DNA from: a virus
Lineage: Duplodnaviria; Caudoviricetes
IMG/VR virus record: IMGVR_UViG_3300030372_001726
Coordinates: 1 to 34,280 of that record
Direction: 5' to 3' (one strand)
DNA length: 34,280 bases
In this document: positions 3,044-29,270 of the stretch, piece by piece
Layout: each line of letters starts with the position of its first letter
How positions within the stretch are numbered: position 1 is the first letter of the stretch
Made by a program: the position numbers and the translations under genes
The notes under the pieces: model-generated
Seen by the model: the letters and a program-made list of their open reading frames with translations, nothing else
What the model was told of the DNA's origin: nothing
The model's database searches: none

Positions 3044-3266
3044 GATTTTTTTATTGTTGATGTTATTATCAATACCTAACCAACCTTCAGTTAAATATAA
3101 TGCTGTTATATATTTTACAGAACAAGAATGTTTGACAGCAAAAAAGGAATATATGAAAGCATACGATAATAAAGAACAAGAATATAAAAATAGAGTTATT
3201 ACAGATGCTTATTGTATTCCTTTTAATTCCTTTCCATTAACCACAATGAACAACACAGCTGCATAA
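3036..3266 (+). CDS. Small secreted hypothetical protein with two Cys
   Basis: Likely start ATG 3036 (MTKIFLLLMLLS...); F.TEQEC...AYCIP pattern. Confidence 0.68.
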   Translation: MTKIFLLLMLLSIPNQPSVKYNAVIYFTEQECLTAKKEYMKAYDNKEQEYKNRVITDAYCIPFNSFPLTTMNNTAA

Positions 3267-3460
3267 TGAGTGAGTGGGAAAATCAATATTTACAAATTTG
3301 TAAAACCTTAGATGAAATTAAATCTGAGGTAAAAGAAAACCGAAGTGAAGTAATGAAATTAAAACAAGAAATGGCAACAGGCAAAGGTGCAATACGCACA
3401 GCCATTTTTATAGGATCAGTTTTAGGAGCAATTTATACATTCTTTAAACTATTAGATTAG
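3266..3460 (+). CDS. Coiled-coil protein with C-terminal TM helix (holin/haemolysin XhlA-like architecture)
   Basis: 64 aa; coiled coil then GKGAIRTAIFIGSVLGAIYTFF. Confidence 0.6.
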   Translation: MSEWENQYLQICKTLDEIKSEVKENRSEVMKLKQEMATGKGAIRTAIFIGSVLGAIYTFFKLLD

Positions 3461-3535
3461 TGGTGCTGTTGGAGGTAATCGAAACCTCGATCTCTTACTT
3501 ACCAAGCAAGTGCTTTACCACTAAGCTACAACAGC
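3461..3535 (-). tRNA. tRNA-Thr (anticodon GGT), 75 nt, CCA encoded
   Basis: Reverse complement folds as a cloverleaf: GCTGTTG TA GCTT AGTGGTA AAGC A CTTGC TTGGTAA GTAAG AGATC GAGGT TTCGATT ACCTC CAACAGC A CCA. 7-bp acceptor stem, D, anticodon and T arms; Thr identity elements C2-G71, G35, U36. Confidence 0.93.
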
Positions 3536-3543
3536 AGGATAGT

Positions 3544-4251
3544 ATGAATACAAAATCTATACTTATATTGAGTGATACTCATTTTCCTTATCAAATACCA
3601 CAATATTTTGATTGGATTAAAAAAATCAAAGAAAAAGTAAAACCAACTATGGTTGTTCACATTGGAGATCTAGTTGATTTTCACGCAATAAGTCAGCATT
3701 TACATAGTGCAGAACTACCAAACATTAAATACGAAATAAAAGATGCAATAAAGTGCATCCAAAAGTTACATAAAATATTTCCAGGTCCTCTTAAAATATT
3801 AAATGGCAACCACGATATTAGAATTCAAAGACTTGCAGAAAAATCTTTAATACCAAACTCTTTTCTTAGAGATATAAATGACATTTTAGAAATAAATAAA
3901 AAGTGGAAATGGACTTGGCATGATAAAATAGTCATGAATCTTCCTAATAAAAATCCGGTCTTTTTTACACATAATTTTAAAACAAATGTATTGAGTAGCT
4001 CGAAAGAATTAGGTATGAGTCTAGTGACAGGTCACCAACATACTAAATCGTCTATTGAATATTGGTCATCACCCACAGCCTTAAATTTTTCTTTATGTAC
4101 TGGATGCAGTATAAATCCAAAACATGAGGCTTTTAAGTATGGCAAAAACTTTATTAAGCGACCTATTATAAGTGTTGCAAGTATAACTGATAGTTCCCCA
4201 ACTATTCACAGTATGCCAATAGTAGATGGAAAGTGGACAGGTAAATTATGA
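3544..4251 (+). CDS. Calcineurin-like metallophosphoesterase
   Basis: Motifs SDTH, GDLVD, GNHD, FTH, GHQH. Start moved to ATG 3544 (AGGA RBS) because the upstream extension overlaps the tRNA. Confidence 0.88.
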   Translation: MNTKSILILSDTHFPYQIPQYFDWIKKIKEKVKPTMVVHIGDLVDFHAISQHLHSAELPNIKYEIKDAIKCIQKLHKIFPGPLKILNGNHDIRIQRLAEKSLIPNSFLRDINDILEINKKWKWTWHDKIVMNLPNKNPVFFTHNFKTNVLSSSKELGMSLVTGHQHTKSSIEYWSSPTALNFSLCTGCSINPKHEAFKYGKNFIKRPIISVASITDSSPTIHSMPIVDGKWTGKL

Positions 4252-4481
4252 ACACTAACGATCCTTTAGTTCAAAAAGTTATAAACCGAATGGCAGCTAG
4301 GAGTGAGTCTGGAATAAAAAAGTTTGGTAATACAATGGATCAAGCTGATAAAACTTTAAATGAGTGGATATTAGACACGCAAGAAGAGTTGATGGATGCT
4401 TGTTTGTATTTAGAAAAATTAAAAGAAGAAATACGAAAGAAAGAGGATTTATGGAATTTGAAGAACTTAAAGAACGAATAA
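4248..4481 (+). CDS. Small all-alpha phage protein, possibly MazG-like/nucleotide diphosphohydrolase-related
   Basis: GIKKFG.TM...EW...QEELMDACLY pattern; function is inference. Confidence 0.55.
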   Translation: MNTNDPLVQKVINRMAARSESGIKKFGNTMDQADKTLNEWILDTQEELMDACLYLEKLKEEIRKKEDLWNLKNLKNE

Positions 4482-4885
4482 AAATTCACGAAGGATATCG
4501 AGATACAATATACCTGGATAGTTTAGGAAAAAAAACAATAGGATATGGTCATCTTATAACTGCAACAGATAAATTTGTTGAAGGAACAAAATATTCAAAA
4601 GAAGAATTAGAACAGACTTTTTTAGAAGATTTTAACAAAGCAGTTGATGGTGCAAAGCGAGTAACCGATTTTGATAAATTACATTCAAAAGCAAAGGAAA
4701 TAGCGATTGAATGTTGTTTTGTTTTGGGTGCTAAAGGATTTTCAGCCTTTAAATTGACCATAGGACACCTTAACGAAGGTCGGTGGACTGATGCATCATC
4801 TGAGCTAAAAAACAGCCTGTGGTATCGAAATCAAGCCACTAACAGAGTTTCGGCATTATGCGAGATATTGGAGAGTATAAAATGA
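4451..4885 (+). CDS. Endolysin, T4-lysozyme-like (GH24) muramidase
   Basis: LKERIKIHEGYR..IYLDSLG..TIGYGHL with E-D-T catalytic triad spacing; start ATG 4451 with GAGG RBS. Confidence 0.9.
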   Translation: MEFEELKERIKIHEGYRDTIYLDSLGKKTIGYGHLITATDKFVEGTKYSKEELEQTFLEDFNKAVDGAKRVTDFDKLHSKAKEIAIECCFVLGAKGFSAFKLTIGHLNEGRWTDASSELKNSLWYRNQATNRVSALCEILESIK

Positions 4886-4980
4886 AGATAATTATAACAA
4901 CACTATTTACTGCATTAGTCGTAATAGAATTCTGCAATCTATATATTTACTATCATCAAATTAAAGGTGTTTTATGTTAA
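4882..4980 (+). CDS. 32-aa TM micropeptide (possible lysis accessory)
   Basis: MKIIITTLFTALVVIEFCNLYIYYHQIKGVLC; ATGA overlap with the endolysin stop, overlaps the holin start. Confidence 0.55.
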   Translation: MKIIITTLFTALVVIEFCNLYIYYHQIKGVLC

Positions 4981-5354
4981 ATCTATTAATTAAACCTCTT
5001 TTAAATTTAGGAGGAGATGTTGTTAAAGGTGTAATAGAAAGTAAACGATTAAAGTCTGAACAAAAATTAACAAAAATAAAAGCTGAAACTGAATTATTAA
5101 ACAAGCAAATTTCTGGCGAAGTAGAGTGGGATATACAAGCAATTAAACAAGCTGAAGGATCTTGGAAAGATGAATATTTAACAATACTTTTTTCTATACC
5201 TTTATTGCTTTGTTTTATTCCTTTTACTGTTGAATATGTTGAAAGAGGTTTTACAGCATTACAACAAACTCCAGATTGGTACAAATATACTTTAGGTGTA
5301 ATTGTTAGTGCATCATTTGGAATAAAAGGTGCAAGTAAATTTTTTAAAAAATAG
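4974..5354 (+). CDS. Putative holin (3TM/GTA-type-like)
   Basis: SWKDEYLTILFSIPLLLCF and PDWYKYTLGVIVSASFGIKG hydrophobic segments; next to the endolysin. Confidence 0.7.
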   Translation: MLNLLIKPLLNLGGDVVKGVIESKRLKSEQKLTKIKAETELLNKQISGEVEWDIQAIKQAEGSWKDEYLTILFSIPLLLCFIPFTVEYVERGFTALQQTPDWYKYTLGVIVSASFGIKGASKFFKK

Positions 5355-5362
5355 GAGGAACT

Positions 5363-5482
5363 ATGAACTTAATTAGAGACTTATGGGATCATTTAAAAGA
5401 GTGGTCGGAGTGGTCAATGAAAGATTGGATTAAGGCAGCTATTGTTGCAATAATCGTAATCGTAGTAATCGGTGCAATCTAA
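5363..5482 (+). CDS. 39-aa membrane peptide
   Basis: MNLIRDLWDHLKEWSEWSMKDWIKAAIVAIIVIVVIGAI; strong GGAGG RBS. Confidence 0.72.
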   Translation: MNLIRDLWDHLKEWSEWSMKDWIKAAIVAIIVIVVIGAI

Positions 5483-5615
5483 AGAAGAACTAAATAGAAT
5501 TGTAGAAGTGTTATCTGGTGCATTTATCATTGGTAAATGTACCGACACACCATTTATTATTAAAAAAAAGGAAAAAAAAATGCAAAAAAAGAAACCAAGA
5601 AAACCTAGATACTAA
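5472..5615 (+). CDS. 47-aa basic hypothetical peptide
   Basis: GTG start overlapping the upstream gene, TAA abuts ATG 5616; Lys-rich C-terminus KKKEKKMQKKKPRKPRY. Confidence 0.4.
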   Translation: MQSKEELNRIVEVLSGAFIIGKCTDTPFIIKKKEKKMQKKKPRKPRY

Positions 5616-5945
5616 ATGAAAATAAAACTGCCTAAAGAAGTTACCATTGGTGCTTTTACTATTGAGTTAGTAACTATTCCTCATGAAGTTAGTTATGAAG
5701 TAGGCGAGGCTCAAGGAGTTTTTTTAGGCAAACCACCTTATAAAATCTTTTTAGATGAAGGTATTATTGAACGAGGTGGTAGGGATGCAGTTAATGTAGT
5801 TATCCATGAATTTCTTCATGTAGGATTTTATCAATATTTATTAAAAGACAAAGAAGAAGAGACAGTAGTCAATTCGTATGGCAATTTTATAACCGAACTA
5901 CTGTCTCGTTCTGAACTAAAGAAATGGATAATCGATAATATTTAA
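5616..5945 (+). CDS. Putative zinc metallopeptidase-like protein (HExxH)
   Basis: VVIHEFLH motif followed by EEETVV. Confidence 0.65.
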   Translation: MKIKLPKEVTIGAFTIELVTIPHEVSYEVGEAQGVFLGKPPYKIFLDEGIIERGGRDAVNVVIHEFLHVGFYQYLLKDKEEETVVNSYGNFITELLSRSELKKWIIDNI

Positions 5946-6334
5946 TCATTTTTAGAATAATAACTATTTACACACCATAGTCTTGGATCTCCTGTATCAT
6001 AAACACAATTATCTATAACGCAGGTTAAATGTCTAGTTGTGTGAACTAAAGCTAAATCATGACTCCATTCCATCAATCTTATTTTTTGATTTTCAAATCT
6101 TGGTGTTTTTCTTTTAATAAAACCATGTTTTTTTAAGTAAACACTGTAGCATTGAGGAAGGTTAGGCATAAAACCAATGTCCCTACCTAATTCAAATAAA
6201 TCGTTCCAGACAACTAAATATGGTTGCTTTGTTGCTATGGCAATAGACCTAACTACGCAGTCGCTTACACTTTTTTTATTTCTAAAATCTGTGTAGTAGC
6301 GACCACCATCATTATATTTATATTCCATTAACAC
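5942..6334 (-). CDS. Conserved phage hypothetical protein
   Basis: NDGGR, DCVVRSIAIA, HLTCVID...YDT motifs (Cys/His/Asp, papain-like triad possible). Confidence 0.7.
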   Translation of the reverse strand: MLMEYKYNDGGRYYTDFRNKKSVSDCVVRSIAIATKQPYLVVWNDLFELGRDIGFMPNLPQCYSVYLKKHGFIKRKTPRFENQKIRLMEWSHDLALVHTTRHLTCVIDNCVYDTGDPRLWCVNSYYSKND

Positions 6335-6627
6335 TCAAAAGTTTTAATATTTAATTTATCATTATTATCTAAAGTAATTTCATATCTATAAGATAAATCT
6401 CCATGATTTTTCCAATGATTAGTTAATCTAACATCGCCTTCAGAATCTTTATTTGCTTTAATAAAAGCACACGCAAACTCATCAGCCTCAAATCGTGGCA
6501 ATCTCCAAGCATACTCTTTTGCTCTTTCCATATATTCGTTAACATTATCTGGGTGACCATCATAATGTTTGTAAACATGAAATTCGCTATCATTATCTTT
6601 AAAAGTATAAACTGCTCTAGTACCCAT
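6328..6627 (-). CDS. Conserved phage hypothetical protein
   Basis: MGTRA...YKHYDGHP motif, 99 aa, GGAG RBS. Confidence 0.75.
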   Translation of the reverse strand: MGTRAVYTFKDNDSEFHVYKHYDGHPDNVNEYMERAKEYAWRLPRFEADEFACAFIKANKDSEGDVRLTNHWKNHGDLSYRYEITLDNNDKLNIKTFEC

Positions 6628-6814
6628 TTTTTTCCTCCATATAACTAGACATTACAACATTAAATTCATTGTCATAAACTGCTGTACTACCATCTAAAAA
6701 AGTTAATTTAATATAATGTTTTAAAACACCCTTCTCAACAAGAGTTACCTTTTGGGACTTAGTAAATATAATTTTATATTTATTTTTGCCCTCTTTCATT
6801 GTTTCAGTAAACAT
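6617..6814 (-). CDS. Hypothetical protein
   Basis: 65 aa, GAGG RBS, coupled to neighbours. Confidence 0.65.
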   Translation of the reverse strand: MFTETMKEGKNKYKIIFTKSQKVTLVEKGVLKHYIKLTFLDGSTAVYDNEFNVVMSSYMEEKNGY

Positions 6815-7038
6815 TATATACCTCTTGATTGTTGAACTTTTTTATTAAGTTCTTTAATTTCTTGGTCACACAAATTTTGTAAAAAATCTCTATGTGCATT
6901 CCAATTAGCACCCACAGTATCTACATATCTGTAAACAATTCTGTGAAATAAAGTTGTTCCCCATCTGTAATCCTTAGAGAACATAAAACCTGTTATTTTC
7001 ATAAAAGGGTAAAGTAATTTTGCATTTAATTTTCTCAT
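6814..7038 (-). CDS. Hypothetical protein
   Basis: 74 aa, AAGGA RBS; first gene downstream of the att region. Confidence 0.65.
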   Translation of the reverse strand: MRKLNAKLLYPFMKITGFMFSKDYRWGTTLFHRIVYRYVDTVGANWNAHRDFLQNLCDQEIKELNKKVQQSRGI

Positions 7039-7061
7039 AAAGTTTCCTTTTCTATAAGGAT

Positions 7062-7287
7062 ATCAATCTGGGGAAAATCTGGGGTGCATTTTGGGGGTCT
7101 TTTATCTTCCTTATTAATCCTTAATGCTCCCCATAGTCCCATAAAGTTGCCAAATTTCCCAAATTGTTACCTTATGTTCCCTATTCTGCATCATTACCAA
7201 TGGTTTGCAAGAAGAAAAAACCATTATTTTATCGCAGTTTTCAGCCATTATTTTTTGCAAAAATCAATCTGGGGGGAATCTGGTGCA
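7062..7287. other. Candidate attP site
   Basis: Non-coding gap immediately 3' of int. Paired arm-type repeats AATCTGG at 7065/7076 and 7266/7277 (11-bp spacing), a 10-bp-phased CC array at 7109-7181, and a core at about 7189-7208 resembling a tRNA-Thr(GGT) anticodon arm. Confidence 0.72.
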
Positions 7288-7291
7288 AAAA

Positions 7292-8359
7292 TTAAGGTAA
7301 TAAATTAATTTTTTTAGGCATAGTTTGTGGCATTATATGAGAATAAACAGCCACACTCTTACTATTTTTCCACCCACCAATATCTTTCAAATCCTCAGTA
7401 TCACAACCTGCATAGGCTCTAAGCCATGTTGCAAAAGTGTGCCTACATTTGTGAGGAGTTTTTTCAAAACTAATATCAGCTTGTCTTAGCATATCTCTCC
7501 AATTAAAATATAACCCCTCGCCATCTTTTTTATTACTCCATGCTTTTCTCCAGATAAAAACATAGCGACCTCGATCATTAACTTTATTAAGCCATTCTTT
7601 TAAATTTTTATGGATAGTTACAGTTCTACTTTTATCGCCTTTACCTTCCCACAATTTAATTTCATCGTTATTAAAATTAATATGTTCCCATTTGCAATTT
7701 AAAGCTTCTTGAAGTCTAGCACCAGTATATATGCAAAACATCATTAACAACTTTATTTGAAACATACTTGTTGTTTTCATACATCTATCAACTTCTTCTG
7801 GAGTAAAATATATTGGATCTCTCTCAATTAATTTTAATCTAGAAATTACCATTTTATGACTCTTGCCTAATTGGTTTGCATAATTAATAACTAATGATGC
7901 AGGACATATAAAACTTCTATTTATAGTATTAAATCTGGCCGACTTTTGTTTTTTCTCAGATTCAGATAAATCAGAATAAGCAGAATTTTTTAAATATTCT
8001 TCCATTGGATAACACTCAAAGGCTTTTTCTTTTATTAGTTTGTTTGTTATGTGTCGAACATCATAGCTGCCTAGATAAGTAACTACTTTATCTATTAATT
8101 TTATTGTTTTAATAGATGGTGGTTTATCTACATCTTGTTTTTTTTCTTCGGCTATGCCTTTAAATTTATATGACTTTGTGCAATTAATATCTTTTTTTAA
8201 TCGTTCTATTAAGTGATATATAAATTTATTAGCCTCGCCTAATTTATCAGTTTTAGCACTAATATTTTTAATAACCTTAGTCTGTCCTTCATAGTTAAAA
8301 GTTCCATTTATATAATAAATATTACTTTTTACATCTGGTCTTCTTCTTGCCTTGAGCAT
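7292..8359 (-). CDS. int: Tyrosine integrase
   Basis: Catalytic residues R (TGARLQE), K (GKGDK), HxxR (HKCRH), GGW, Y (VYSH). Confidence 0.95.
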   Translation of the reverse strand: MLKARRRPDVKSNIYYINGTFNYEGQTKVIKNISAKTDKLGEANKFIYHLIERLKKDINCTKSYKFKGIAEEKKQDVDKPPSIKTIKLIDKVVTYLGSYDVRHITNKLIKEKAFECYPMEEYLKNSAYSDLSESEKKQKSARFNTINRSFICPASLVINYANQLGKSHKMVISRLKLIERDPIYFTPEEVDRCMKTTSMFQIKLLMMFCIYTGARLQEALNCKWEHINFNNDEIKLWEGKGDKSRTVTIHKNLKEWLNKVNDRGRYVFIWRKAWSNKKDGEGLYFNWRDMLRQADISFEKTPHKCRHTFATWLRAYAGCDTEDLKDIGGWKNSKSVAVYSHIMPQTMPKKINLLP

Positions 8360-8535
8360 AGTTCTATAATCCTTTCTATATGTTTATCGGTAAACCTTTG
8401 TTGCCTACCGACATAAGTATTCAAGGCATCTTCATTGGGAAATTTGGACTTTAATTCTTTGAGATTTCTTAAACAAGTTTTGTAGTGAATCTCAAGTCGT
8501 TCAGATAGATGTTTTATATTGTGGAGTCGAGTCAT
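8329..8535 (-). CDS. Excisionase/recombination directionality factor (MerR-like HTH)
   Basis: 68 aa basic HTH-like protein with VGRQQRFT wing, immediately upstream of and overlapping int. Confidence 0.7.
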   Translation of the reverse strand: MTRLHNIKHLSERLEIHYKTCLRNLKELKSKFPNEDALNTYVGRQQRFTDKHIERIIELCSRQEEDQM

Positions 8536-12026: not shown

Positions 12027-12788
12027 TTATAAGGAAATTTGTTCGACTTTATAGTCAGTTTCAAATAAAGAAATATTAGATATTTGTGGATAGATAGCAT
12101 CATATTCACAATTATCTCTTTTTTCCCATTTATTTATCATCATGTTTTTATAAGTAACTTTTTCGCCTTGTTCTGTAAATTCGATTTTATCTTTGTTCAT
12201 AAATGTACCTTTCCACCATTGAAAAACAGCAGTACCATTTTTATTAAAATCTAATACATGACCATAATAAAACTGTTGGTCTTTAGAACATTGCATAATT
12301 GCATCAACATATAATAAAGCTTCTTTTTTTGTTTTATCTTTTACCCAATCTTTATGTTCCATATCTATAATAGAAAAAGAAGGTACTTTTTTAAAACCAT
12401 CGGCATCCCAATACATAGCTTTATAAGATGAAGGCATATATAAATCTTTTAAAGAATAAATTAATTCTATTGGTTGATCGTATTGTCTTGGTACAAAATG
12501 ACTATTTTCTCTATTAAAATATTGTATAATTTCTATTTTAGGAATGTCATCAGAAATAAGTTTATTTATTTTAACATTTAAAATTCTTGAAAACTCTTGA
12601 AGCTGAGAAAATTTAATATCTGTATCACCTTTTATAATTGAATAAATTGTTTGGTGAGACATTTTACCAAATCCATTTGGTTTCTCTGCTGTCATTAAAG
12701 CCAATGAACGAGCATTTTGCCCACTCTGATCAATAACCATTTTAAGATTATCTAAGTGTTTTTGTTGACCTAAAAGTTTCATTTGCAT
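12027..12788 (-). CDS. CI-like (XRE HTH) repressor
   Basis: N-terminal HTH (MSHQTIYSIIKGDTDIKFSQLQEFSRILNV); sits between the divergent early operons; no recognisable S24 catalytic motif. Confidence 0.72.
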   Translation of the reverse strand: MQMKLLGQQKHLDNLKMVIDQSGQNARSLALMTAEKPNGFGKMSHQTIYSIIKGDTDIKFSQLQEFSRILNVKINKLISDDIPKIEIIQYFNRENSHFVPRQYDQPIELIYSLKDLYMPSSYKAMYWDADGFKKVPSFSIIDMEHKDWVKDKTKKEALLYVDAIMQCSKDQQFYYGHVLDFNKNGTAVFQWWKGTFMNKDKIEFTEQGEKVTYKNMMINKWEKRDNCEYDAIYPQISNISLFETDYKVEQISL

Positions 12789-12904
12789 AGCAACCTACCT
12801 CATTCTAGTGTAGGTTTCTATAAATAACCTACCTGTCTTTGACTTTATGTCAAAGCATATAAAAATAAATATTTATACATCAAAATTTACAAAGTAAAGT
12901 TTAT

Positions 12905-12940
12905 TTGACAAAGACAATTTTTATTATTATTTGTCTATTA
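12905..12940 (+). promoter_or_regulatory. Rightward early promoter (PR-like), possibly leaderless
   Basis: TTGACA 12905-12910, 17 bp, TATTTG 12928-12933, then 6 nt to the ATG at 12940; no SD upstream. Confidence 0.45.
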
Positions 12941-13209
12941 TGATTATAAAATGCACAATTTGTAAAAAAACTGTGGAATATAGCCAAAATCTGTCAAAAA
13001 AACAGATAAAAGTTTTAAAATTTATTCAAGATTATCAGCAAAAAAATAATAAAACTCCTAGCTTTCGTGAGATAGCAAAAGGACTAAATTATCAGACTCC
13101 GAGCAATGTTTTTAGGATGATTGATACATTAATAGACAAACAATACATACAAAAACGACCATATTCAGCCAGATCCTTTGTTATTTTAAAGGCTCTGCCC
13201 TGTGCATAG
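12940..13209 (+). CDS. LexA DNA-binding-domain-only protein with N-terminal CxxC
   Basis: LSKKQIKVLKFI...TPSFREIAKGL....PSNVFRMIDTLIDKQYIQKRPYSARSF aligns by eye to the LexA winged HTH; no peptidase domain; occupies the cro position. Confidence 0.85.
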   Translation: MIIKCTICKKTVEYSQNLSKKQIKVLKFIQDYQQKNNKTPSFREIAKGLNYQTPSNVFRMIDTLIDKQYIQKRPYSARSFVILKALPCA

Positions 13210-14056
13210 CCATTTAGATTTATGTTCTGGTATAGGTGGATTCGCTTTAGGCTTACAAAACACAGGTTATTTTAAAACATCAGCCTTTTGTGAAATTGAT
13301 TCTTATTGCCAGAAAGTATTAAATAAAAATTTCCCAGACATACCAATATACAGCGACATAAGAGAATTTAGTCCGACAAAAGAAAAAATTAATCCATTTA
13401 TAATTACATCTGGTTTTCCTTGTCAGCCATTTTCTGTTGCAGGAAGACAAAAAGGAAAAGATGACAACAGAAATCTCTGGAAAGAAACTTTTAGAATTAT
13501 CAAAGAGTCCAAACCTACTTGGTTCATTGGAGAAAATGTTAGTGGAATTGTTAGGATGTATCTCGACACCATACTTGAGGACCTGGAGAGTGCGAACTAC
13601 TCCACGAGGTGCTTTATTATTTCAGCTCAAAGCATCGGTGCAAAACATGAAAGGGAACGCATTTGGATTGTGGCGAACTCCAGATGGATCAGCAGGGGGG
13701 ACAAACATCAAGGGGATCAGAAGATGCCTCGACAAGAACCAACCTTTGCTAAGACCGAGTGGTCACGCAATACAAGTGAGATTGACCGATCAGATTCTAG
13801 AGCCGAGACTTTATCCAACTCCAACAACATCGGAACAAAAATACAGACTCAAAGGAAACTCTCAAGCTTCGAAATCTTTAGAGGCTCAAGCCAGACAAAT
13901 TGGTGGGAAATTGAATCCGAACTTTGTGGAACACCTAATGGGCTTTCCACAGAATTGGACAAAGATAGAGTAAAAAGAATTAAGGGACTAGGCAATGCTA
14001 TTGTTCCTCAAATACCATTTTATATAGGACAGGCAATAGGGAGGCTTTATGAGTGA
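13202..14056 (+). CDS. C5 cytosine DNA methyltransferase (alpha subunit)
   Basis: Motif I DLCSGIGG, IV GFPCQPFS, VI ENV, VIII HERERIWIV, X LGNAIV; motif IX not evident in this frame. Confidence 0.92.
   Translation: MHSHLDLCSGIGGFALGLQNTGYFKTSAFCEIDSYCQKVLNKNFPDIPIYSDIREFSPTKEKINPFIITSGFPCQPFSVAGRQKGKDDNRNLWKETFRIIKESKPTWFIGENVSGIVRMYLDTILEDLESANYSTRCFIISAQSIGAKHERERIWIVANSRWISRGDKHQGDQKMPRQEPTFAKTEWSRNTSEIDRSDSRAETLSNSNNIGTKIQTQRKLSSFEIFRGSSQTNWWEIESELCGTPNGLSTELDKDRVKRIKGLGNAIVPQIPFYIGQAIGRLYE
13461..13973 (+). CDS. Nested alternative-frame C5 methyltransferase beta subunit (TRD + motif IX)
   Basis: 170-codon open +1 frame inside the MTase gene; AAGGA RBS before ATG 13461; ends LNPNFVEHLMGFPQNWT (motif IX-like); two W/Y-x-TP repeats. 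Confidence 0.8.
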   Translation: MTTEISGKKLLELSKSPNLLGSLEKMLVELLGCISTPYLRTWRVRTTPRGALLFQLKASVQNMKGNAFGLWRTPDGSAGGTNIKGIRRCLDKNQPLLRPSGHAIQVRLTDQILEPRLYPTPTTSEQKYRLKGNSQASKSLEAQARQIGGKLNPNFVEHLMGFPQNWTKIE

Positions 14057-14822
14057 TAATATATCTTTTCCTTACCAGGATTTTTATTTTGCTGATTGGC
14101 GAATGGGTTGCTCTGGAATGACAGCACAACAAGAGGGATTATATATTCGATTATATACTCAGCTTGGCAGCTTAAATGGTCGAGGCTTACCTAATGACTT
14201 TAATATTATTTATCGCATGGTTTGTGATCCAACTGATAATCCAGATGTAACACAGCATCAAAAGGAAGATTTAATGTGGGTGATTAATGCAAAATTAACA
14301 CTGATTGATGGTCGTTATCATCAGCTTAGACAGAAAAAATCAAGGGAAGATAAGATTGAAATTGTTAAATTAAGGCAGGAATCTGGGAAAAAAGGTGGTC
14401 TAGCAAAAGCCAAGCAAACCTCTAGCAAACCTTCTGATTCTGATTCTGAATCTTATAACTATATATGGAGTAAATTATCAATTAAAAGAGGCTCTAAAAC
14501 TGTTGCTTACTCCTCTTGGTTAAAGTTTGCAAAAGACATTAAGCCAGACACATTAATAGAAAAATATAATGCTTTATGTTCGCAATCAGATGATCCAAAA
14601 TTTATTCCACACTTTAGCACTTGGTTAAATCACTCAAGGTGGGAAGAGGAACTGCCAAGTAAAAAAGAAACAAATAATTTTGGTGTTCAACCAAAAAAAT
14701 CACACAAAGATTATGTCGGTTTTGTAAAAAAAGGCATCAGAAGTACATCAATTTCTGACGATATGGTGCGTCAGATGAGAAAAGAAAATTTAATAACAGA
14801 AGAAGAATTTAAGGCATGGTAG
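14049..14822 (+). CDS. Phage replication initiator (DUF1376/YdaU-like N-terminus)
   Basis: PYQDFYFADW....MTAQQEGLYIRL N-terminus; FIPHFSTWLN..RWE C-terminal motif; GGAGG RBS. Confidence 0.8.
   Translation: MSDNISFPYQDFYFADWRMGCSGMTAQQEGLYIRLYTQLGSLNGRGLPNDFNIIYRMVCDPTDNPDVTQHQKEDLMWVINAKLTLIDGRYHQLRQKKSREDKIEIVKLRQESGKKGGLAKAKQTSSKPSDSDSESYNYIWSKLSIKRGSKTVAYSSWLKFAKDIKPDTLIEKYNALCSQSDDPKFIPHFSTWLNHSRWEEELPSKKETNNFGVQPKKSHKDYVGFVKKGIRSTSISDDMVRQMRKENLITEEEFKAW
14400..14465 (+). repeat. Candidate replication-origin iterons inside the initiator gene
   Basis: AGCAAA at 14402, 14413 and 14424 (11-bp period), then TTCTGA x3 and an AT-only-rich tract. Confidence 0.5.
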
Positions 14823-15643
14823 AAAGACTGCAAGTTTTATCATTTGGTGCAGGTGTGCAATCAACATCAATGTTTTTAATGTCAGTAAATGGTTTTTTAA
14901 ATAAAGTAGATCATTGTATATTTGCTGATACTGGTTTTGAGCCAGATTATGTTTATGACCAAGTTAAAAGATGTGAAAAAATAGCCAAAGATAATGGTAT
15001 AGGTTTTTATACTGTTAAAGCAGATTTTAAAGATAGCCATGAAAATATTTATACTCACACTATGGAAGCTACTAAAGGCAACACTTCAAGATATAGTGGT
15101 TTTCCAATGTATATGGAAAAAGGTTTTATTCGTAGGCAATGCACAAATGATTTTAAAATACAACCAATTAGGAAAAAAATAAGAGAATTATTAGGTTTAA
15201 AAAAAGGTCAAAGAGCAGGAAAAGAAATATTAGTAGATCAATGGATAGGTATTTCTATGGATGAAATACAAAGAACAAGAAGAAACAGAGATGTTTGGAT
15301 AAATAATTATTATCCTTTAATTGAAAAAAACTTAAACAGAAATGATTGTCTTAATTGGATAAAAGAAAATAATTTACCTATTCCTAAAAAATCTGCCTGT
15401 ATTAATTGCCCATATCACGACAATAAAACTTGGATTGATATGAAAAAAAATAGACCAGATGATTTTGCTAAAGCTGTTGAGATTGATTATGCTGTTAGGG
15501 AAGCTGAGTCTTTAAAATATCCTTTTGATGTAAAACTGTACACTCATAGAAGTTTACAACCATTAGATAAAGTTGAGTTTGATCCTAACAAAGATCAATT
15601 AGATATGTTTGATGAGGAATGTGAAGGTATTTGTGGCATCTAA
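14816..15643 (+). CDS. PAPS-reductase-like (PP-loop) protein
   Basis: LSFGAGVQS PP-loop, FADTG, RQCT..FK..PI, IGIS.DE..R, YPLI, KSAC..CPY, C-terminal EECEGIC. Confidence 0.8.
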   Translation: MVERLQVLSFGAGVQSTSMFLMSVNGFLNKVDHCIFADTGFEPDYVYDQVKRCEKIAKDNGIGFYTVKADFKDSHENIYTHTMEATKGNTSRYSGFPMYMEKGFIRRQCTNDFKIQPIRKKIRELLGLKKGQRAGKEILVDQWIGISMDEIQRTRRNRDVWINNYYPLIEKNLNRNDCLNWIKENNLPIPKKSACINCPYHDNKTWIDMKKNRPDDFAKAVEIDYAVREAESLKYPFDVKLYTHRSLQPLDKVEFDPNKDQLDMFDEECEGICGI

Positions 15644-16655: not shown

Positions 16656-17903
16656 ATGAAGATAGAAATGTGGTCTATTGATAGACCAATAGCCTATGTT
16701 CGCAATGCTCGAAAGATACCTCAACAAGCAATCGATAAGGTTGCCGGAAGTTTAAATGAGTTTGGTTGGAGACAACCAATAGTTGTGGACACTAAAGAAA
16801 TTATAATTGTTGGTCATACAAGACTTAAAGCTGCACAAAAGTTAGGCTTAAAAGAAGTACCAGTTCATATTGCCGAAAATTTAACTGAGGCTCAAGTCAA
16901 AGCATATAGACTAGCTGATAATAGAACAGGTGAAGAGACTGATTGGGATCAAGAGTTATTATCTTTAGAGATAAAAGACTTAACTGATTATGATATTAAC
17001 TTAGACTTAACAGGTTTTGGTGACAAAGAAGTAACGCAGCTGTTAAACCAATATTTAGAAACCGAACAAGGTAATATTGGCGATGATGAGATACCAGATA
17101 CTATTGAGACTAGGACTCAGCATGGTGACTTATGGCAACTTGGCAGACACAAATTATTATGTGGTGATGCAACAATAAAAGAGGATGTTGCAAAGCTAAT
17201 GGGTGACATGAAGATAGATATGATCTTCACTGATCCTCCTTATAATGTTAATTACTCTGGTCGTGGCAAGAATGAATTAGGGACAATTAAAAATGACAAT
17301 ATGGATAATGATTCCTTTATGTTATTTTTAAATGACACTTTTAGTTTAGCTCATGAGTATTTAAAACCATTAGGCTCACTCTATGTTTGTCATGGTGATA
17401 GTAAATCAGATGCTAAAATAAGTTTTGAAGTTATCTTTGATAAATATTTTAAGAAGTCATCGACTATTATTTGGGTTAAGCAATCAGCCGGAATGGGTTG
17501 GCAAGATTATAGGTGTCAACATGAACCAATATTATATGGTTGGAAAGAAGGTAAAGGAAAGCACTCCTTTTATGGTGATAGAACTAAATCAACTGTTTGG
17601 AATGTATCAAGAGACTCTCAATCATCTTATAAGCATCCGACTCAAAAGCCTATTGCATTAATAGAAGAGGCTTTAAGAAACAGTAGTAAAGAAGAGGACC
17701 TGGTATATGATTCCTTTGGTGGAAGTGGTTCAACACTCATAGCTGCAGAAAAGAATAATAGAATTTGTAACACAATAGAATTAGATCCTAAGTTTTGTGA
17801 TGTTATATTACAACGATGGGAAGACTTTACAGGAGACAAAGCAAAATTAAATGGAAGAAATAAAAAAGGGCAGACCGACAAAGTACAGCAAGACTCTAAT
17901 TAA
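16656..17903 (+). CDS. ParB-like domain fused to N6-adenine/N4-cytosine DNA methyltransferase (beta class)
   Basis: N-terminal RNAR, FGWRQPIVVD, GHTRL, ADN; catalytic TDPPY precedes HPTQKP and SAM-binding DSFGGSGST. Confidence 0.92.
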   Translation: MKIEMWSIDRPIAYVRNARKIPQQAIDKVAGSLNEFGWRQPIVVDTKEIIIVGHTRLKAAQKLGLKEVPVHIAENLTEAQVKAYRLADNRTGEETDWDQELLSLEIKDLTDYDINLDLTGFGDKEVTQLLNQYLETEQGNIGDDEIPDTIETRTQHGDLWQLGRHKLLCGDATIKEDVAKLMGDMKIDMIFTDPPYNVNYSGRGKNELGTIKNDNMDNDSFMLFLNDTFSLAHEYLKPLGSLYVCHGDSKSDAKISFEVIFDKYFKKSSTIIWVKQSAGMGWQDYRCQHEPILYGWKEGKGKHSFYGDRTKSTVWNVSRDSQSSYKHPTQKPIALIEEALRNSSKEEDLVYDSFGGSGSTLIAAEKNNRICNTIELDPKFCDVILQRWEDFTGDKAKLNGRNKKGQTDKVQQDSN

Positions 17904-23308: not shown

Positions 23309-24328
23309 ATGGCAGATACGCCTCAAGAGGAGTCTGTTGTTTCAAAACCAACCTATAATACAGAAGAAACAACTCAAGCATTCGCTACCCTACTAAACAA
23401 AGAAGAGACTGCAAGGAACGAAGAGCTTGAAACACCTACATCGGACAAAGGAGAAGTCGATCTAAAAGAAGACACCGATGATCCCTTAATGGAAGATGTA
23501 GATGTTAGTGAAGAAGTAGTAGATAACGAAGAAGCCTTATCAAAAAACGAAGAGACACTTTATGATGTGACCATAAATGGTAACAAGCAAAAAGTTACAC
23601 TCAATGAGTTAATGAAAGGCTACTCTAGGGAATCAGACTATACCAAAAAGACGATGGATTTAAGTAATCAACGCAAAGAGGTTGAATCTATGCAAGAAAA
23701 CTTAAAGAAAGAGTTTGACGCAGTCAAAAGTTCTCGTGATCAATATGCAACACAATTAGAAATTTTAACTAATAATTTGCAACAAGAAGAGAAAGTAAAT
23801 TGGGATGAGCTTTATCGTGAAGATCCTGCTGAGTATGTACGCAAAAAAGCAGAAGATGATAAACGAAAAGAGTCTTTAAATATTGCTCGTCAAGAGCAAC
23901 TTAGAATTCAAAAAGAACAACAAGAAGAGCAAAAGAAAGTATATAACGAGTATATTGCTAATGAACGAAAAATCTTGTCTGAAAAACTTCCCCAATATGC
24001 TGACAAAAATAAAAGTGCAGAGTTTACAAGACGATTAACAAATTTTGCTAAAGAGAGTGGTTATTCTGATCAAGAAATTGCTATGATGGTAGATCATCGT
24101 GCAGTTTTATTGTTAGCTGATGCTTACAGATATAATCAACTGAAAAAAACAAAATTGTCTAATAACAAAGTAAACAAAACTTCTAAAGTTGTCACTTCTA
24201 ACGCATCTAATGTTAGAGAAGATTCTGAGGTGAAACAAAATATTGATAAGAGAATGTCGAGACTCAAAAAATCTGGACATCTCAAAGATGCACAATCGGT
24301 GTTAAAGGAGATGTACTTTAACGAATAG
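23309..24328 (+). CDS. Capsid scaffolding protein
   Basis: Acidic N-terminus, VTL.EL..GYSRESDYTKKT motif, coiled coil; precedes the capsid gene; AAGGAG RBS. Confidence 0.88.
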   Translation: MADTPQEESVVSKPTYNTEETTQAFATLLNKEETARNEELETPTSDKGEVDLKEDTDDPLMEDVDVSEEVVDNEEALSKNEETLYDVTINGNKQKVTLNELMKGYSRESDYTKKTMDLSNQRKEVESMQENLKKEFDAVKSSRDQYATQLEILTNNLQQEEKVNWDELYREDPAEYVRKKAEDDKRKESLNIARQEQLRIQKEQQEEQKKVYNEYIANERKILSEKLPQYADKNKSAEFTRRLTNFAKESGYSDQEIAMMVDHRAVLLLADAYRYNQLKKTKLSNNKVNKTSKVVTSNASNVREDSEVKQNIDKRMSRLKKSGHLKDAQSVLKEMYFNE

Positions 24329-24337
24329 GAGACTACA

Positions 24338-25342
24338 ATGGCTGTACCTAATAATACAGTACAAACCTATACTCGTGTTGGTATAAGAGAAGATTTAGCA
24401 GATGTTATTTATAACATAGCACCTACTGAAACACCTTTTATGTCTAATGCAGGTACAGGATCAGCTTCTCAAAGTAATCATGAGTGGCAAACAGACGGAT
24501 TGGCTAACGCAGCTGCCAATAAACAAATTGAAGGCGATGATGCAGCAAACTTAGCTACAGTTGCAACAACTAGATTAGGAGATTTTACACAAATATCTAC
24601 AAAAGTTATTGGTGTATCTGGAACTGATCAAGCAGTTACAAATGCAGGTCGTGGTGATGAACTTGCTTACCAAATGGCTAAAGCAGGTAAAGAACTAAAA
24701 AGAGACATGGAGTTTACACTCGTAGGTCAAGAAAATTTTAAAACAGCAGGTGCAGCCGGAACAGCAAGAGAGCTTGGATCAGTTGGAACTTGGTATGGAG
24801 GTAACATACCTGGAACTGCTACTGCAGCTAACAACTATTCAGCTGCAGCCAACACTACTTATGCTAATGCAGCAGGAGCTGTTGGTGCAGGTTTAAATGG
24901 TGATGGTCTTGTTAAAAGAAATGCCAATGGAACTTTAAGAGCTTACACAGAAGATTTACTAAAAGCAGGTTTGAAAAAAACTTTTGAACTTGGTGGAAGT
25001 CCAGATTGTGTAATGATGACTGCTTCTCATAAGCAAACTGCTTCTGGTTTTAATGGTATCGCTACAAACACAAACAACATTGCTGATAAAAGAGTTATCG
25101 GTGCTGTGGATGTGTATGTATCAGACTTTGGCGAAGTAACTTTCGTACCAAATAGACACCAACAAGAAAACAGAGTTGACATTTTGGAAATGGATAAGTG
25201 GGAACTATCTTATCTTAGACCTTTCCAAACTAAAGAACTTGCTAAAACTGGTGACTCAGACAAAAGAATGCTTTTAACTGAGTACACTTTAACTGCAAGA
25301 GCTCCAACTGCCAACTATGGTATTTTTGCTCTAACAGCTTAA
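24338..25342 (+). CDS. Major capsid protein (DUF5309/SU10-like)
   Basis: REDLADVIYNIAPTETPF, HEWQTD, ELKRDME, YVSDFG, LAKTGD motifs; AGGAG RBS. Confidence 0.94.
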   Translation: MAVPNNTVQTYTRVGIREDLADVIYNIAPTETPFMSNAGTGSASQSNHEWQTDGLANAAANKQIEGDDAANLATVATTRLGDFTQISTKVIGVSGTDQAVTNAGRGDELAYQMAKAGKELKRDMEFTLVGQENFKTAGAAGTARELGSVGTWYGGNIPGTATAANNYSAAANTTYANAAGAVGAGLNGDGLVKRNANGTLRAYTEDLLKAGLKKTFELGGSPDCVMMTASHKQTASGFNGIATNTNNIADKRVIGAVDVYVSDFGEVTFVPNRHQQENRVDILEMDKWELSYLRPFQTKELAKTGDSDKRMLLTEYTLTARAPTANYGIFALTA

Positions 25343-25356
25343 ATTAAATTTATATG

Positions 25357-25385
25357 AGGGGAGGAAATTAGTTCCTCCCTTTTTA
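25357..25385 (+). terminator. Rho-independent terminator after the capsid gene
   Basis: GGGAGGAA-ATTAG-TTCCTCCC followed by TTTTT. Confidence 0.85.
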
Positions 25386-25423
25386 ATTGAAGAGCATTAT
25401 GCTCGGAACAATTAAGGAAAACA

Positions 25424-25777
25424 ATGAGAACATTAAACGATTATTTTTTAACAGGAAAAATTACAACTATCTCAACAGCAGGTAGTAGTTTTGTAACTGC
25501 TCCTGATAGTGGAAAAATTATTAAAATTTATACTACAATTAAAAATGCAATTTCTTCTGCTGATGCAGGTCTATCTTTTGAAATAGGTGGAGTAGCTGTC
25601 GGTGGTGGTGGCATTACAGTAACACAATCTGGTTCAGCTGCAGGAGATGTTGATTCAGCAACTCCTTCAAGTGCAAATTATGTAGCAGAAGGACAAGCAA
25701 TAGAAATGATAACAGATGGTGCATCTTCAACTGCTTGTGAGTGTGAAGTAACTTTTGTAATCAGAAGAATGGGGTAA
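25424..25777 (+). CDS. Putative capsid decoration/structural protein
   Basis: 117 aa, small-residue beta-rich; follows the capsid gene. Confidence 0.65.
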   Translation: MRTLNDYFLTGKITTISTAGSSFVTAPDSGKIIKIYTTIKNAISSADAGLSFEIGGVAVGGGGITVTQSGSAAGDVDSATPSSANYVAEGQAIEMITDGASSTACECEVTFVIRRMG

Positions 25778-25779
25778 TT

Positions 25780-26076
25780 ATGGCTAATGCAGGAATATAT
25801 TATGGCAGACCTTCAACAATACATAAAATTGATTTTACTGATTCATCAGTAGCAAATTCAACTGCTTTTAGTTCAGACACGAGTTATGTAATGTTATGTT
25901 CAAAAACAGCAGGGTGTCATTTTGTTGTTGCATCATCTCCAACTGCAACTGTTAATGGAGGATCTTATTTACCAAAAGATGAAGTTATTTTTATCAAAGT
26001 AAGTGGTGGCGATAAAATTGGAGCTATCAGAGAAGCATCTACAAGTGGCAGTTTATACGCAACCGAGATGGTATGA
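25780..26076 (+). CDS. Putative structural protein
   Basis: 98 aa beta-rich. Confidence 0.65.
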   Translation: MANAGIYYGRPSTIHKIDFTDSSVANSTAFSSDTSYVMLCSKTAGCHFVVASSPTATVNGGSYLPKDEVIFIKVSGGDKIGAIREASTSGSLYATEMV

Positions 26077-26429
26077 CAAAAAAACTTTGGATAGACGATA
26101 CAAATAGTGCATCAACTTTAAAAACAAGAATGCACATTGATGAAAGTGAAAATAAATATCACTTTGAAGATGTGCAAGATGTTGAGCCTTTAATAGACAT
26201 GAATAAAAAAGAGTCTAATTTAGGTAATGATGCACTAAAGTTTCATGGTGAACTTGGTAAACACGCAGGAATGACTAAGGTTGCCTCTATCCCTCTTGTT
26301 GTTGTTCAACAACTTGCCCAAAAAGGAATAATGAACCAAGCAGGTGGTATAAAAGACAAAGAGGCATTTAAAAAATGGCTTAATGATCCTGATAATAGAT
26401 TTTTTAAAACTTATAATGGAAAAATATAA
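26073..26429 (+). CDS. Conserved phage protein
   Basis: QDVEP, KVASIP, KKWLNDPDNRFF motifs. Confidence 0.75.
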   Translation: MTKKLWIDDTNSASTLKTRMHIDESENKYHFEDVQDVEPLIDMNKKESNLGNDALKFHGELGKHAGMTKVASIPLVVVQQLAQKGIMNQAGGIKDKEAFKKWLNDPDNRFFKTYNGKI

Positions 26430-27058
26430 TGGCTTTGGACTCATACGCAAATTTAAAAACAGAGATTGCAAATTATCTAAACAGAACAGATTTAACATCT
26501 TATTTAGACACATTTATTGAATTAGCAGAATCTCGTATAGCTCGTGATTTACGATTACGAGAAATGGAAACTATAGACACATCAATAACAACTGTTTCTG
26601 GAACACAAAGTTATGATTTGCCAACAGGATATTTAGAAATGCGATATGTTGCTTATCAAACAAGTCCTTATACTTTTCTTACTTTCTTAGCTCCACCAGA
26701 TTTTATGCGAGTGTATAATGCAGGTGAAGGATCTGGAACGCCATCACATTACACTATTATTGGTAGTAAAATTTATTTAGGAATGCAACCAGATGCAGCT
26801 AAAGTTTTAGAATTAGGATTTTTTAAAAGACCAACAGGATTGTCTGCTGTTAATACAACAAATGAAATTTTAACAAACTTTCCAGATATTTATTTATATT
26901 CTTGCCTTGCAGAAAGTGAGCCTTTTTTAATGAACGATGAAAGACTACAAGTTTGGGCATCGCTATATAAAGAAGCAGTAGAGACTGCAAATAATTCTGC
27001 ACAAAGAGGAAGATCATCTGGAGCACCTTTAAATATGACTGCTAGAATGGTGGTCTAA
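26429..27058 (+). CDS. Head-tail adaptor (tail tubular protein A-like)
   Basis: Y..LK..IANYLNRTDL....FI.LAE.R..R.LR; PDIYLY. Confidence 0.82.
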   Translation: MALDSYANLKTEIANYLNRTDLTSYLDTFIELAESRIARDLRLREMETIDTSITTVSGTQSYDLPTGYLEMRYVAYQTSPYTFLTFLAPPDFMRVYNAGEGSGTPSHYTIIGSKIYLGMQPDAAKVLELGFFKRPTGLSAVNTTNEILTNFPDIYLYSCLAESEPFLMNDERLQVWASLYKEAVETANNSAQRGRSSGAPLNMTARMVV

Positions 27059-28555: not shown

Positions 28556-28884
28556 TGGCTCAAAACCAATATTTAAAAGTTCCTGTATCAATGCCGGATA
28601 GTTCACAGCATTTACGATTAATTTCAAATACTGTAAACAACACACTTGATGGAAAATTAAACTCAACAGGAAATATAACTTTAACAGCAAGTGCAACAAC
28701 AACAACTTTAACTGATAGAAGAATAGGTGCAAACTCTATAATTTTATTTATGCCTACGACGGCAAATGGAAACACAGCAAAAACTAATTTATATGTTTCT
28801 GCAAGAGCAGATGGATCAGCAACATTAACACACGCTAGTTCGTCAAATAATGATCAGACCTTTGGATATATTGTTATTGGATGA
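28555..28884 (+). CDS. Putative tail needle/structural protein
   Basis: 109 aa, Thr-rich, GKLNSTG motif. Confidence 0.65.
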   Translation: MAQNQYLKVPVSMPDSSQHLRLISNTVNNTLDGKLNSTGNITLTASATTTTLTDRRIGANSIILFMPTTANGNTAKTNLYVSARADGSATLTHASSSNNDQTFGYIVIG

Positions 28885-29270
28885 TCATAAAAGTACCTCC
28901 AGAAGATTTACATATTATCTGGAACGAAGTTGAGCCAAAAATAAAAAAAGCTCTTGATGACTGTTACTCAAGTCAAGATATTTTAGATGGTTTAATACAA
29001 AATAAATTTCAACTTTTTATTAGTTGGGAAAACAAAGTGGAAAGTGCAGTAATTACAGAAGTTGCACAATACCCACAAAAAAAGATTTGTCGTTATTTCT
29101 TAGCAGGAGGTAGCAACATGAATAATTGGCTTGAGCCAATACAACAAGAAATAGAAAAATTTGCCAAATACAATAACTGTCAAGCAATAGAGGTTGCAGG
29201 GCGAAAAGGATGGGCAAAAAAATTAAAAGGATATGAACAAAAAATATATTTATTTAGCAAGGAATTATAA
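28881..29270 (+). CDS. GNAT-fold-like phage protein
   Basis: ITEV..YP.KK....LAGG....W and GRKGW motifs; position before the ejection proteins. Confidence 0.65.
   Translation: MIIKVPPEDLHIIWNEVEPKIKKALDDCYSSQDILDGLIQNKFQLFISWENKVESAVITEVAQYPQKKICRYFLAGGSNMNNWLEPIQQEIEKFAKYNNCQAIEVAGRKGWAKKLKGYEQKIYLFSKEL

What the first reader, a model, noticed from the sequence alone, without database searches (positions are those of the whole stretch)
3461..7208. Destroy-and-replace integration: attP core mimics a tRNA-Thr(GGT) anticodon loop, and a separate phage tRNA-Thr(GGT) lies 3.7 kb away
Seen: between the arm-type repeats next to int, the minus strand of 7186-7208 reads GCAAACCA-TTGGTAA-TGATGCAG. This has the same 7-nt loop TTGGTAA as the intact tRNA-Thr(GGT) at 3461-3535, but no T arm, acceptor stem or CCA follows and no D arm precedes it. 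The intact tRNA has a different anticodon stem (CTTGC/GTAAG). Known: many tyrosine integrases cross over in the 7-nt anticodon loop and normally carry the displaced tRNA half in attP. Phage-tRNA-dependent lysogeny has been reported in actinobacteriophages. Inference: this phage breaks the host tRNA-Thr(GGT) and complements it in trans with a recoded copy its own integrase should not recognise, which could also penalise partial prophage loss. I know of no description of this in marine alphaproteobacterial phages.
Basis: partly seen in the sequence, partly recalled or inferred. Interest (0 to 1): 0.9.

Follow-up and report, generated by a model that had tools for sequence, protein, structure and literature searches.

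The report
Marine phage splits tRNA-Thr, carries spare
This marine virus carries a short attachment site matching the anticodon loop of a bacterial threonine tRNA plus its own complete copy of that tRNA, so it likely breaks the host gene when it inserts and supplies a replacement, a trick already published for other marine and soil phages and seen here across a whole uncultured phage family.

Summary
Observation confirmed. An intact tRNA-Thr(GGT) lies at 3461-3535(-). A TTGGTAA core (7194-7200) between arm-like repeats follows a tyrosine integrase and has no tRNA half beside it. The core shares 12 bp with tRNA-Thr(GGT) of marine SAR11-like and HIMB59-order genomes, and simulated junctions rebuild no tRNA. 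Among 27 attachment-site types in relatives, core and carried tRNA agree in 15 (12 Thr, 3 Val) and never disagree. Three Thr-core types lack the tRNA, 8 types have neither, and 1 is a tentative Thr match. A same-family phage's site is joined exactly at the loop to a host tRNA-Thr 3' half in a HIMB59-order genome. No junction of this very phage was found, so its host (HIMB59 or SAR11) is open. The novelty claim fails: pelagiphages (10.1101/410191) and a Fonsibacter phage (10.1101/672428) were reported to do this, and PMC10865867 named and tested it. This scan also noted the pattern before on other DNA. That the recoded stem evades the integrase is untested. Verdict: new member of a known kind.

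The parts
3461..3535 (-). Intact phage tRNA-Thr(GGT) with encoded CCA, antisense to the late genes, in an 83-nt gap between two ORFs
   Evidence: identical sequence in 12 related loci
7194..7200 (-). Predicted 7-bp crossover region of attP (TTGGTAA), equal to the tRNA-Thr(GGT) anticodon loop
   Evidence: invariant in Thr-type relatives; junction of a same-family phage falls here
7191..7202 (-). 12-bp core identical to tRNA-Thr(GGT) of GCA-002718135 (alleles A and C) and of three marine SAR11-like genomes
7062..7082 (.). Repeat copy, candidate arm-type integrase site
   Evidence: role inferred
7263..7283 (.). Repeat copy, candidate arm-type integrase site
   Evidence: role inferred
7125..7184 (.). 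Two of three TGTTCCCYAT-type repeats (third at 6955-6964), candidate arm or accessory-factor sites
   Evidence: role inferred
7292..8359 (-). Tyrosine integrase, 355 aa, catalytic R-K-H-R-W-Y set intact
8329..8535 (-). 68-aa ORF overlapping the integrase start and kept beside it in relatives; candidate excisionase (inferred, no family hit)
3544..4251 (+). Metallophosphoesterase gene bounding the tRNA slot; used as the synteny marker
3266..3460 (+). 64-aa ORF bounding the other side of the slot
12027..13209 (.). Divergent pair of HTH regulators (12027-12788 minus, 12931-13209 plus), a likely lysis-lysogeny switch
   Evidence: weak hits for the first gene

Best explanation
The phage has a tyrosine integrase, a short attP whose centre equals the tRNA-Thr(GGT) anticodon loop, and a separate intact tRNA-Thr(GGT); it likely integrates at that loop in a streamlined marine alphaproteobacterium, would leave the host gene in two dead halves, and likely complements the loss with its own tRNA (tRNA-dependent lysogeny). 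Predicted prophage order: host 5' half, loop, right arm, small leftward ORFs, lysis genes, phage tRNA about 3.7 kb inside, rest of the genome, integrase, left arm, loop, host 3' half. Shown: the anatomy, the core match, the absence of repair in simulated junctions, the isotype coupling across relatives, and loop-exact junction scars of relatives in HIMB59-order chromosomes. Inferred: integration by this phage itself, expression and charging of its tRNA, and dependence of lysogens on it. The host is more likely the order HIMB59 than SAR11 proper (about 60:35).
For: (1) Isotype coupling. Of 184 phage loci screened, 84 had the att region plus the tRNA slot or a tRNA; they fall into 27 att types: Thr core with Thr tRNA 12, Val core with Val tRNA 3, mismatches 0, no recognised loop and no tRNA 8, Thr core without tRNA 3, and L561, whose loop lies 425 nt past its tRNA-Thr. 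(2) L508 has a slot neighbour 94% identical to the window's ORF 3266-3460, a different att and an empty slot. (3) Junction: HIMB59-order genome G183 holds 482 bp 93.8% identical to the integrase end and left arm of phage contig L552; identity stops at TTGGTAA and the host tRNA-Thr 3' half follows, whereas L552 has no tRNA half after the loop. (4) G111 (GCA-002718135) has a window-clade att-like site just after its tRNA-Thr: alignment score 50 to the window's attP, maximum 32 in 1000 shuffles. (5) Contig L090 joins GCA-type tRNA-Thr halves and transporter genes to an integrase C-terminus 70% identical to the window's. (6) Simulated attL and attR give no tRNA for 4 HIMB59-order alleles and 3 SAR11-like loci. 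(7) The Val and Ala cores equal HIMB59-order anticodon loops. (8) The mechanism is proven in mycobacteriophage Fionnbharth (PMC10865867).
Against: No attL or attR of the window's own phage in contigs of 8 runs, in genome contigs or in 187 HIMB59-order genomes. Three of 15 Thr-core types (L026, L552, L549) have no tRNA in the covered region, and L026 has the same core and arms as L003, which has one; these contigs are partial. The clean junction comes from L552, whose integrase is only 30% identical to the window's and which shows no tRNA; in G183 the tRNA at the native position is intact. L090 is a metagenome contig and could be chimeric. Hosts also have tRNA-Thr(TGT), so essentiality of the GGT gene is unknown. 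Loci with a tRNA were admitted even when the slot was not covered, which favours positives, and the types are phylogenetically linked. No promoter-like site was found in 3300-3900.
Confidence: 0.8

Rival explanations
1. Integration does break the host tRNA-Thr(GGT), but the loss is only a fitness cost because tRNA-Thr(TGT) can read the ACN box; the phage tRNA is helpful rather than required, so lysogeny is not strictly tRNA-dependent.
For: Three Thr-core types lack the tRNA. All three targets (Thr GGT, Val GAC, Ala GGC) are G34 tRNAs of four-codon boxes, and Ala(GGC) was found in only 1 of 116 GCA-002718135 genomes and not in the tRNA lists of G460 or G499. Hosts carry Thr(TGT).
Against: Thr(GGT) is kept in the streamlined genomes whose tRNAs were listed (G460, G068, G073, G499) and in at least 69 of 116 incomplete GCA-002718135 genomes. 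PMC10865867 reports a tRNA-less short-core phage (Daredevil) that simply fails to lysogenise, so exceptions are expected.
Confidence: 0.25
2. The tRNA serves lytic growth (supplying ACU/ACC decoding or replacing tRNA cut by host defences) and merely travels with the integration module.
For: It lies among late and lysis genes 3.7 kb from attP, and ACU plus ACC make up 303 of 630 Thr codons in window ORFs of 100 aa or more. Its stem differs from most host stems, as expected of nuclease-resistant phage tRNAs (recalled idea; discussed in PMC10865867).
Against: It does not explain why the slot holds Val(GAC) exactly when the core is the Val loop (L012, L480) and is empty in 8 types with other cores. 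ACC, the codon most dependent on this tRNA, is 41 of 630.
Confidence: 0.1
3. The core is a chance 7-mer or targets a non-tRNA site, and no tRNA is broken.
For: A 7-mer match arises in 5.3% of shuffles, and CATTGGTAATG also occurs outside tRNAs in most HIMB59-family genomes.
Against: The loop is invariant across integrases down to 44% identity and switches as a block to two other anticodon loops; host scars end exactly at the loop.
Confidence: 0.04

Closest known systems
Pelagiphages HTVC019P, HTVC025P, HTVC119P, HTVC200P (Zhao et al., 10.1101/410191; passages and section 11 read, supplements not seen)
   Same: [quoted passage not shown]
   Different: Those are cultured T7-like phages using Cys and Leu tRNAs. 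This phage has a divergent-regulator layout and a head protein 44% identical to phiM5 and 42% to HTVC106P, uses Thr(GGT), and its family also uses Val(GAC) and Ala(GGC) loops.
tRNA-dependent lysogeny of actinobacteriophages (Fionnbharth, cluster L, Gaia, BrutonGaster/OneUp; PMC10865867; abstract and sections 6, 10, 11 read)
   Same: Tyrosine integrase, 8-17 bp core, no rebuilt tRNA, cognate phage tRNA on the opposite strand and unlike the host copy, isotype co-switching between relatives, and a tRNA-less exception.
   Different: Proven experimentally there and with essential Lys, Ile2 and Leu tRNAs. Here it is computational only, and the targets are G34 tRNAs with a U34 partner, so lethality is uncertain.
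uv-Fonsiphage-EPL (10.1101/672428; passages read)
   Same: 11-bp core splits a SAR11-clade tRNA and the phage encodes its own replacement.
   Different: Freshwater Fonsibacter host, tRNA-Leu(TAG), HTVC019P-related phage, prophage observed directly.
HTVC010P-type temperate pelagiphages (PMC8477408; passages read, one supplement file searched)
   Same: Int-adjacent cores in SAR11 tRNA genes, with core tracking the integrase lineage.
   Different: Cores of 14-43 bp; HTVC028P repairs the tRNA. The supplement search gave Thr-TGT twice and no TTGGTAA.

Membership tests
tRNA-dependent lysogeny (PMC10865867) | Phage tyrosine integrase | tested here: met
   PF00589, E 7e-26; R-K-H-R-W-Y intact
tRNA-dependent lysogeny (PMC10865867) | attP shares only a short (about 10 bp) core with an attB inside a host tRNA gene | tested here: met
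   7-12 bp with candidate host tRNA-Thr(GGT) genes; loop-exact junction for same-family phage L552; host of this phage not fixed
tRNA-dependent lysogeny (PMC10865867) | No functional tRNA rebuilt at attL or attR | tested here: met
   ARAGORN finds none in simulated junctions with 7 host loci; simulation only
tRNA-dependent lysogeny (PMC10865867) | [quoted passage not shown] | tested here: met
   tRNA-Thr(GGT) at 3461-3535; coupling in relatives
tRNA-dependent lysogeny (PMC10865867) | The disrupted host tRNA is essential and single-copy | tested here: inconclusive
   One GGT gene in each of four listed tRNA sets, each beside a TGT gene; G111 has two; essentiality not testable
tRNA-dependent lysogeny (PMC10865867) | Phage tRNA is expressed and required for lysogen survival | not testable with these tools
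   No culture data; no promoter-like match; 3 Thr-core types lack the tRNA
Canonical tRNA-repairing attP (long core carrying a tRNA half) | attP carries the displaced 5' or 3' tRNA half | tested here: not met
   No D arm, T arm or acceptor strand beside the core
HTVC019P-type (T7-like) pelagiphages | attP between integrase and a phage RNA polymerase gene | tested here: not met
   No RNA polymerase hit among 50 ORFs scanned against PHROGs; small ORFs and lysis genes follow attP

The most novel reading that the evidence does not exclude
A widespread uncultured phage family retargets its integrase by swapping only the 7-nt overlap among G34 anticodon loops (Thr, Val, Ala) and refits its spare tRNA to match, once by putting a Val anticodon arm on its Thr scaffold (L012: 77% identical to a phage tRNA-Thr, 51-61% to host tRNA-Val). 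Repeated break-and-replace cycles would then drive turnover of the chromosomal tRNA-Thr(GGT) in HIMB59-order bacteria, which show three dissimilar alleles (53-77% identical; two checked sit at the same locus), orphan halves beside intact copies, and one host copy with the phage's exact anticodon arm.
Probability: 0.3. Interest if true: 0.62.

Novelty: new member of a known kind. Interest (0 to 1): 0.38.

Why it matters
It gives a clear role to a lone phage tRNA and extends tRNA-dependent lysogeny to a new isotype set and a new phage lineage of very abundant ocean bacteria. Host-prediction rules that need an exact att match of more than 30 bp (as in PMC4981710) miss such phages; the pairing of a 7-nt core with a carried tRNA is a usable substitute. 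If the HIMB59 link holds, it names a temperate phage family for that order. Four searches listed no paper describing one, though a 2026 preprint reports integrated phages in HIMB59 single cells. The mechanism itself is not new.

Tried and rejected
Direct junction search: contigs of 8 runs laid on the att region showed no loose end at 7194-7200; contigs drop rare forms, so this is not absence. No integrase relative in genome contigs. The window's attP against 187 HIMB59-order genomes gave only short matches; of six followed up, only the two in G111 proved att-like.

'SAR11 lacks tRNA-Thr(GGT), so it cannot be the host': I held this, then rejected it. A full tRNA list of G499 shows the gene with an unusual T-loop that those patterns missed.

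Searches used patterns that were off by one base and are void; 81 and 88 replace the Ala and allele-B searches, and the Val search was not repeated. The SAR11 column was mis-anchored and is replaced.

'Allele B of the host tRNA is phage-derived': not supported; it is 61-68% identical to phage tRNA-Thr, no closer than other host alleles. C33 in the Val loop as a host marker: rejected, about 4800 stretches across many phyla have it. The length match between G122:C41 and L007's contig was coincidence. No longer contig for the Ala-core phages was found, so their slot is unseen. The L027, L501 and L547 att types matched no listed tRNA beyond 9 bp.
Full report
What is there. The window is a 34,280-bp phage record, 32.5% G+C. 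PHROGs hits give a leftward block with integrase, Erf and exonuclease, a divergent regulator pair, then terminase, portal, scaffold, capsid and tail genes. The capsid protein's nearest named relatives are phiM5 (44%) and HTVC106P (42%); no integrase in the phage collection exceeds about 29% (40 of 122 records listed). The one tRNA is Thr(GGT) at 3461-3535 on the minus strand. The TTGGTAA core lies 91 nt after the integrase stop and the tRNA 3757 nt after it, with repeats on both sides of the core. The integrase keeps its catalytic residues.

Relatives. An alignment of 20 integrases fetched 45 viral and 73 metagenome loci, and the neighbouring metallophosphoesterase fetched the best 80 of 151. 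In integrases 44-100% identical the 7-mer is fixed while its flanks drift, and it switches as a block to TCGACAC or CTGGCAG in some lineages. I screened 184 loci (L035-L045, L090 and L118 left out). Of these, 84 had both the att region and the slot or a tRNA, and they collapse to 27 att types: Thr with Thr 12, Val with Val 3, no recognised loop and no tRNA 8, Thr without tRNA 3, and L561, scored 'none' but with a loop 425 nt past its tRNA-Thr. No type pairs a core with the wrong tRNA. The types are related, so they are not 27 independent events; the Val pairs fall on three separate branches of the tree. L012 is the clearest switch: a phage sharing many genes with the window, with a Val core and a Val tRNA in the same slot, built on the phage Thr scaffold.

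Host. A tRNA-Val match led to G001, which is AG-891-E17, order HIMB59, family GCA-002718135 (Table S1 of PMC10734472). In that family 28 of 116 genomes have a Thr(GGT) with CA-TTGGTAA-TGA, and 41 of 57 others have a second allele. Most Thr(GGT) matches in the remaining 71 genomes of the order have a CACCC stem, and 50 of them have Ala(GGC) with loop CTGGCAG. Marine SAR11-like genomes, so labelled by a recalled 16S probe, also have CA-TTGGTAA-TGA in 3 of 5 checked. The window's core is 12 bp identical to both groups, and the L075 clade has 15 bp with SAR11. The Val and Ala cores do not fit G499. Other alphaproteobacteria with CA/TG stems also exist. HIMB59 is favoured by the scars below and by a 17.5-kb contig in G068 syntenic with the window's virion genes (capsid 43%), but SAR11 was not surveyed as deeply.

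Junction scars. G183 holds the integrase end and left arm of an L552-like phage (482 bp, 93.8%) joined at TTGGTAA to the host 3' half; this is the attR layout predicted from the window. G136, G180 and G148 hold L552's other arm, reversed, joined the same way, which fits the 7-mer being the overlap that sets orientation. G136 has an orphan 5' half with an intact copy 1.6 kb inside, and G006 a similar pair. G111 has a window-clade att-like site right after its tRNA-Thr. L090 fuses GCA-type sequence to a 70% identical integrase end. None is the window's own prophage, L552 shows no tRNA, and contigs of 8 runs gave no junction.

Mechanism. Crossover in the loop would leave a 5' half without a T arm and a 3' half without a D arm; ARAGORN finds no tRNA in simulated junctions with 7 host loci. 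The phage tRNA would then be the cell's only GGT reader. Whether it is needed for survival is open: hosts keep a TGT partner, yet retain GGT widely. The phage tRNAs differ from the usual host stems, or in L104 in the loop itself. That fits self-avoidance but does not show it, and G122 carries the same anticodon arm in a host genome.

Prior work. Section 11 of 10.1101/410191 reports the same arrangement for four pelagiphages. Passages of 10.1101/672428 report it for a Fonsibacter phage. PMC10865867 defines and tests it and includes isotype co-switching and a tRNA-less exception. A passage of PMC12429752 says it was described for prophages in Sinorhizobium. The supplements of the bioRxiv papers could not be seen and may hold further att sequences. 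Earlier notes of this scan describe the same pattern in other elements (unchecked), and none on look-alikes of this window.

Verdict. A real feature, most likely tRNA-dependent lysogeny at tRNA-Thr(GGT) (0.8), and a new member of a known kind. What is fresh is the phage family, the Thr/Val/Ala loop switching, the refitted tRNA and the probable HIMB59 link. Interest 0.38.

Noticed in passing
L012:14915-14989 (same sequence in L480): tRNA-Val(GAC) with a tRNA-Thr-type acceptor stem, 77% identical to a phage tRNA-Thr and 51-61% to host tRNA-Val: a likely identity switch by anticodon-arm replacement.
   Followed up: partly
L004, L006, L056-L058, about 70 nt after the integrase stop: Integrase nearly identical in the tree to L003's, same arms, but the core is the Ala(GGC) loop; contigs end before the tRNA slot.
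   Followed up: partly
L432 (G068) versus L455 (G073); L281-L300, L587-L598: GCA-002718135 genomes carry dissimilar tRNA-Thr(GGT) alleles (53-77% identical); A and B sit between the same flanking genes in the pair checked, and upstream flanks vary widely.
   Followed up: partly
L301:602-676 and L302:8138-8212 (G122): One hybrid tRNA-Thr with an unpaired anticodon stem, and one intact copy whose anticodon arm equals the window's phage tRNA.
   Followed up: partly
L597 and L598 (G111): Two copies of an island: intact tRNA-Thr, window-clade att-like site, one gene, then a decayed tRNA-Thr with a mutated loop.
   Followed up: partly
L634-L636 (G499, G515, G571): SAR11-like tRNA-Thr(GGT) has a non-canonical T-loop lacking the usual TTC motif, so motif searches miss it.
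   Followed up: partly
L409 (G068:C16): 17.5-kb phage contig in a HIMB59-order genome, syntenic with window 23309-34280 and 240-1299 at 25-65% protein identity.
   Followed up: partly
L104-L106; L303-L305: The 7-nt core is reversed relative to the integrase or arms in some lineages, which would flip prophage orientation.
   Followed up: no
L027 group, L501-L510, L547: Same phage family with 27-31% identical integrases, other att cores and an empty tRNA slot; their targets are unidentified.
   Followed up: partly
window 13202-14056, 14816-15643, 16656-17903: Two DNA methyltransferases (one fused to a ParB-like domain) and a PAPS-reductase-family gene.
   Followed up: no
L480 (contig of L498): Val-type att site and tRNA-Val present, but no match to the window's integrase upstream.
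   Followed up: no
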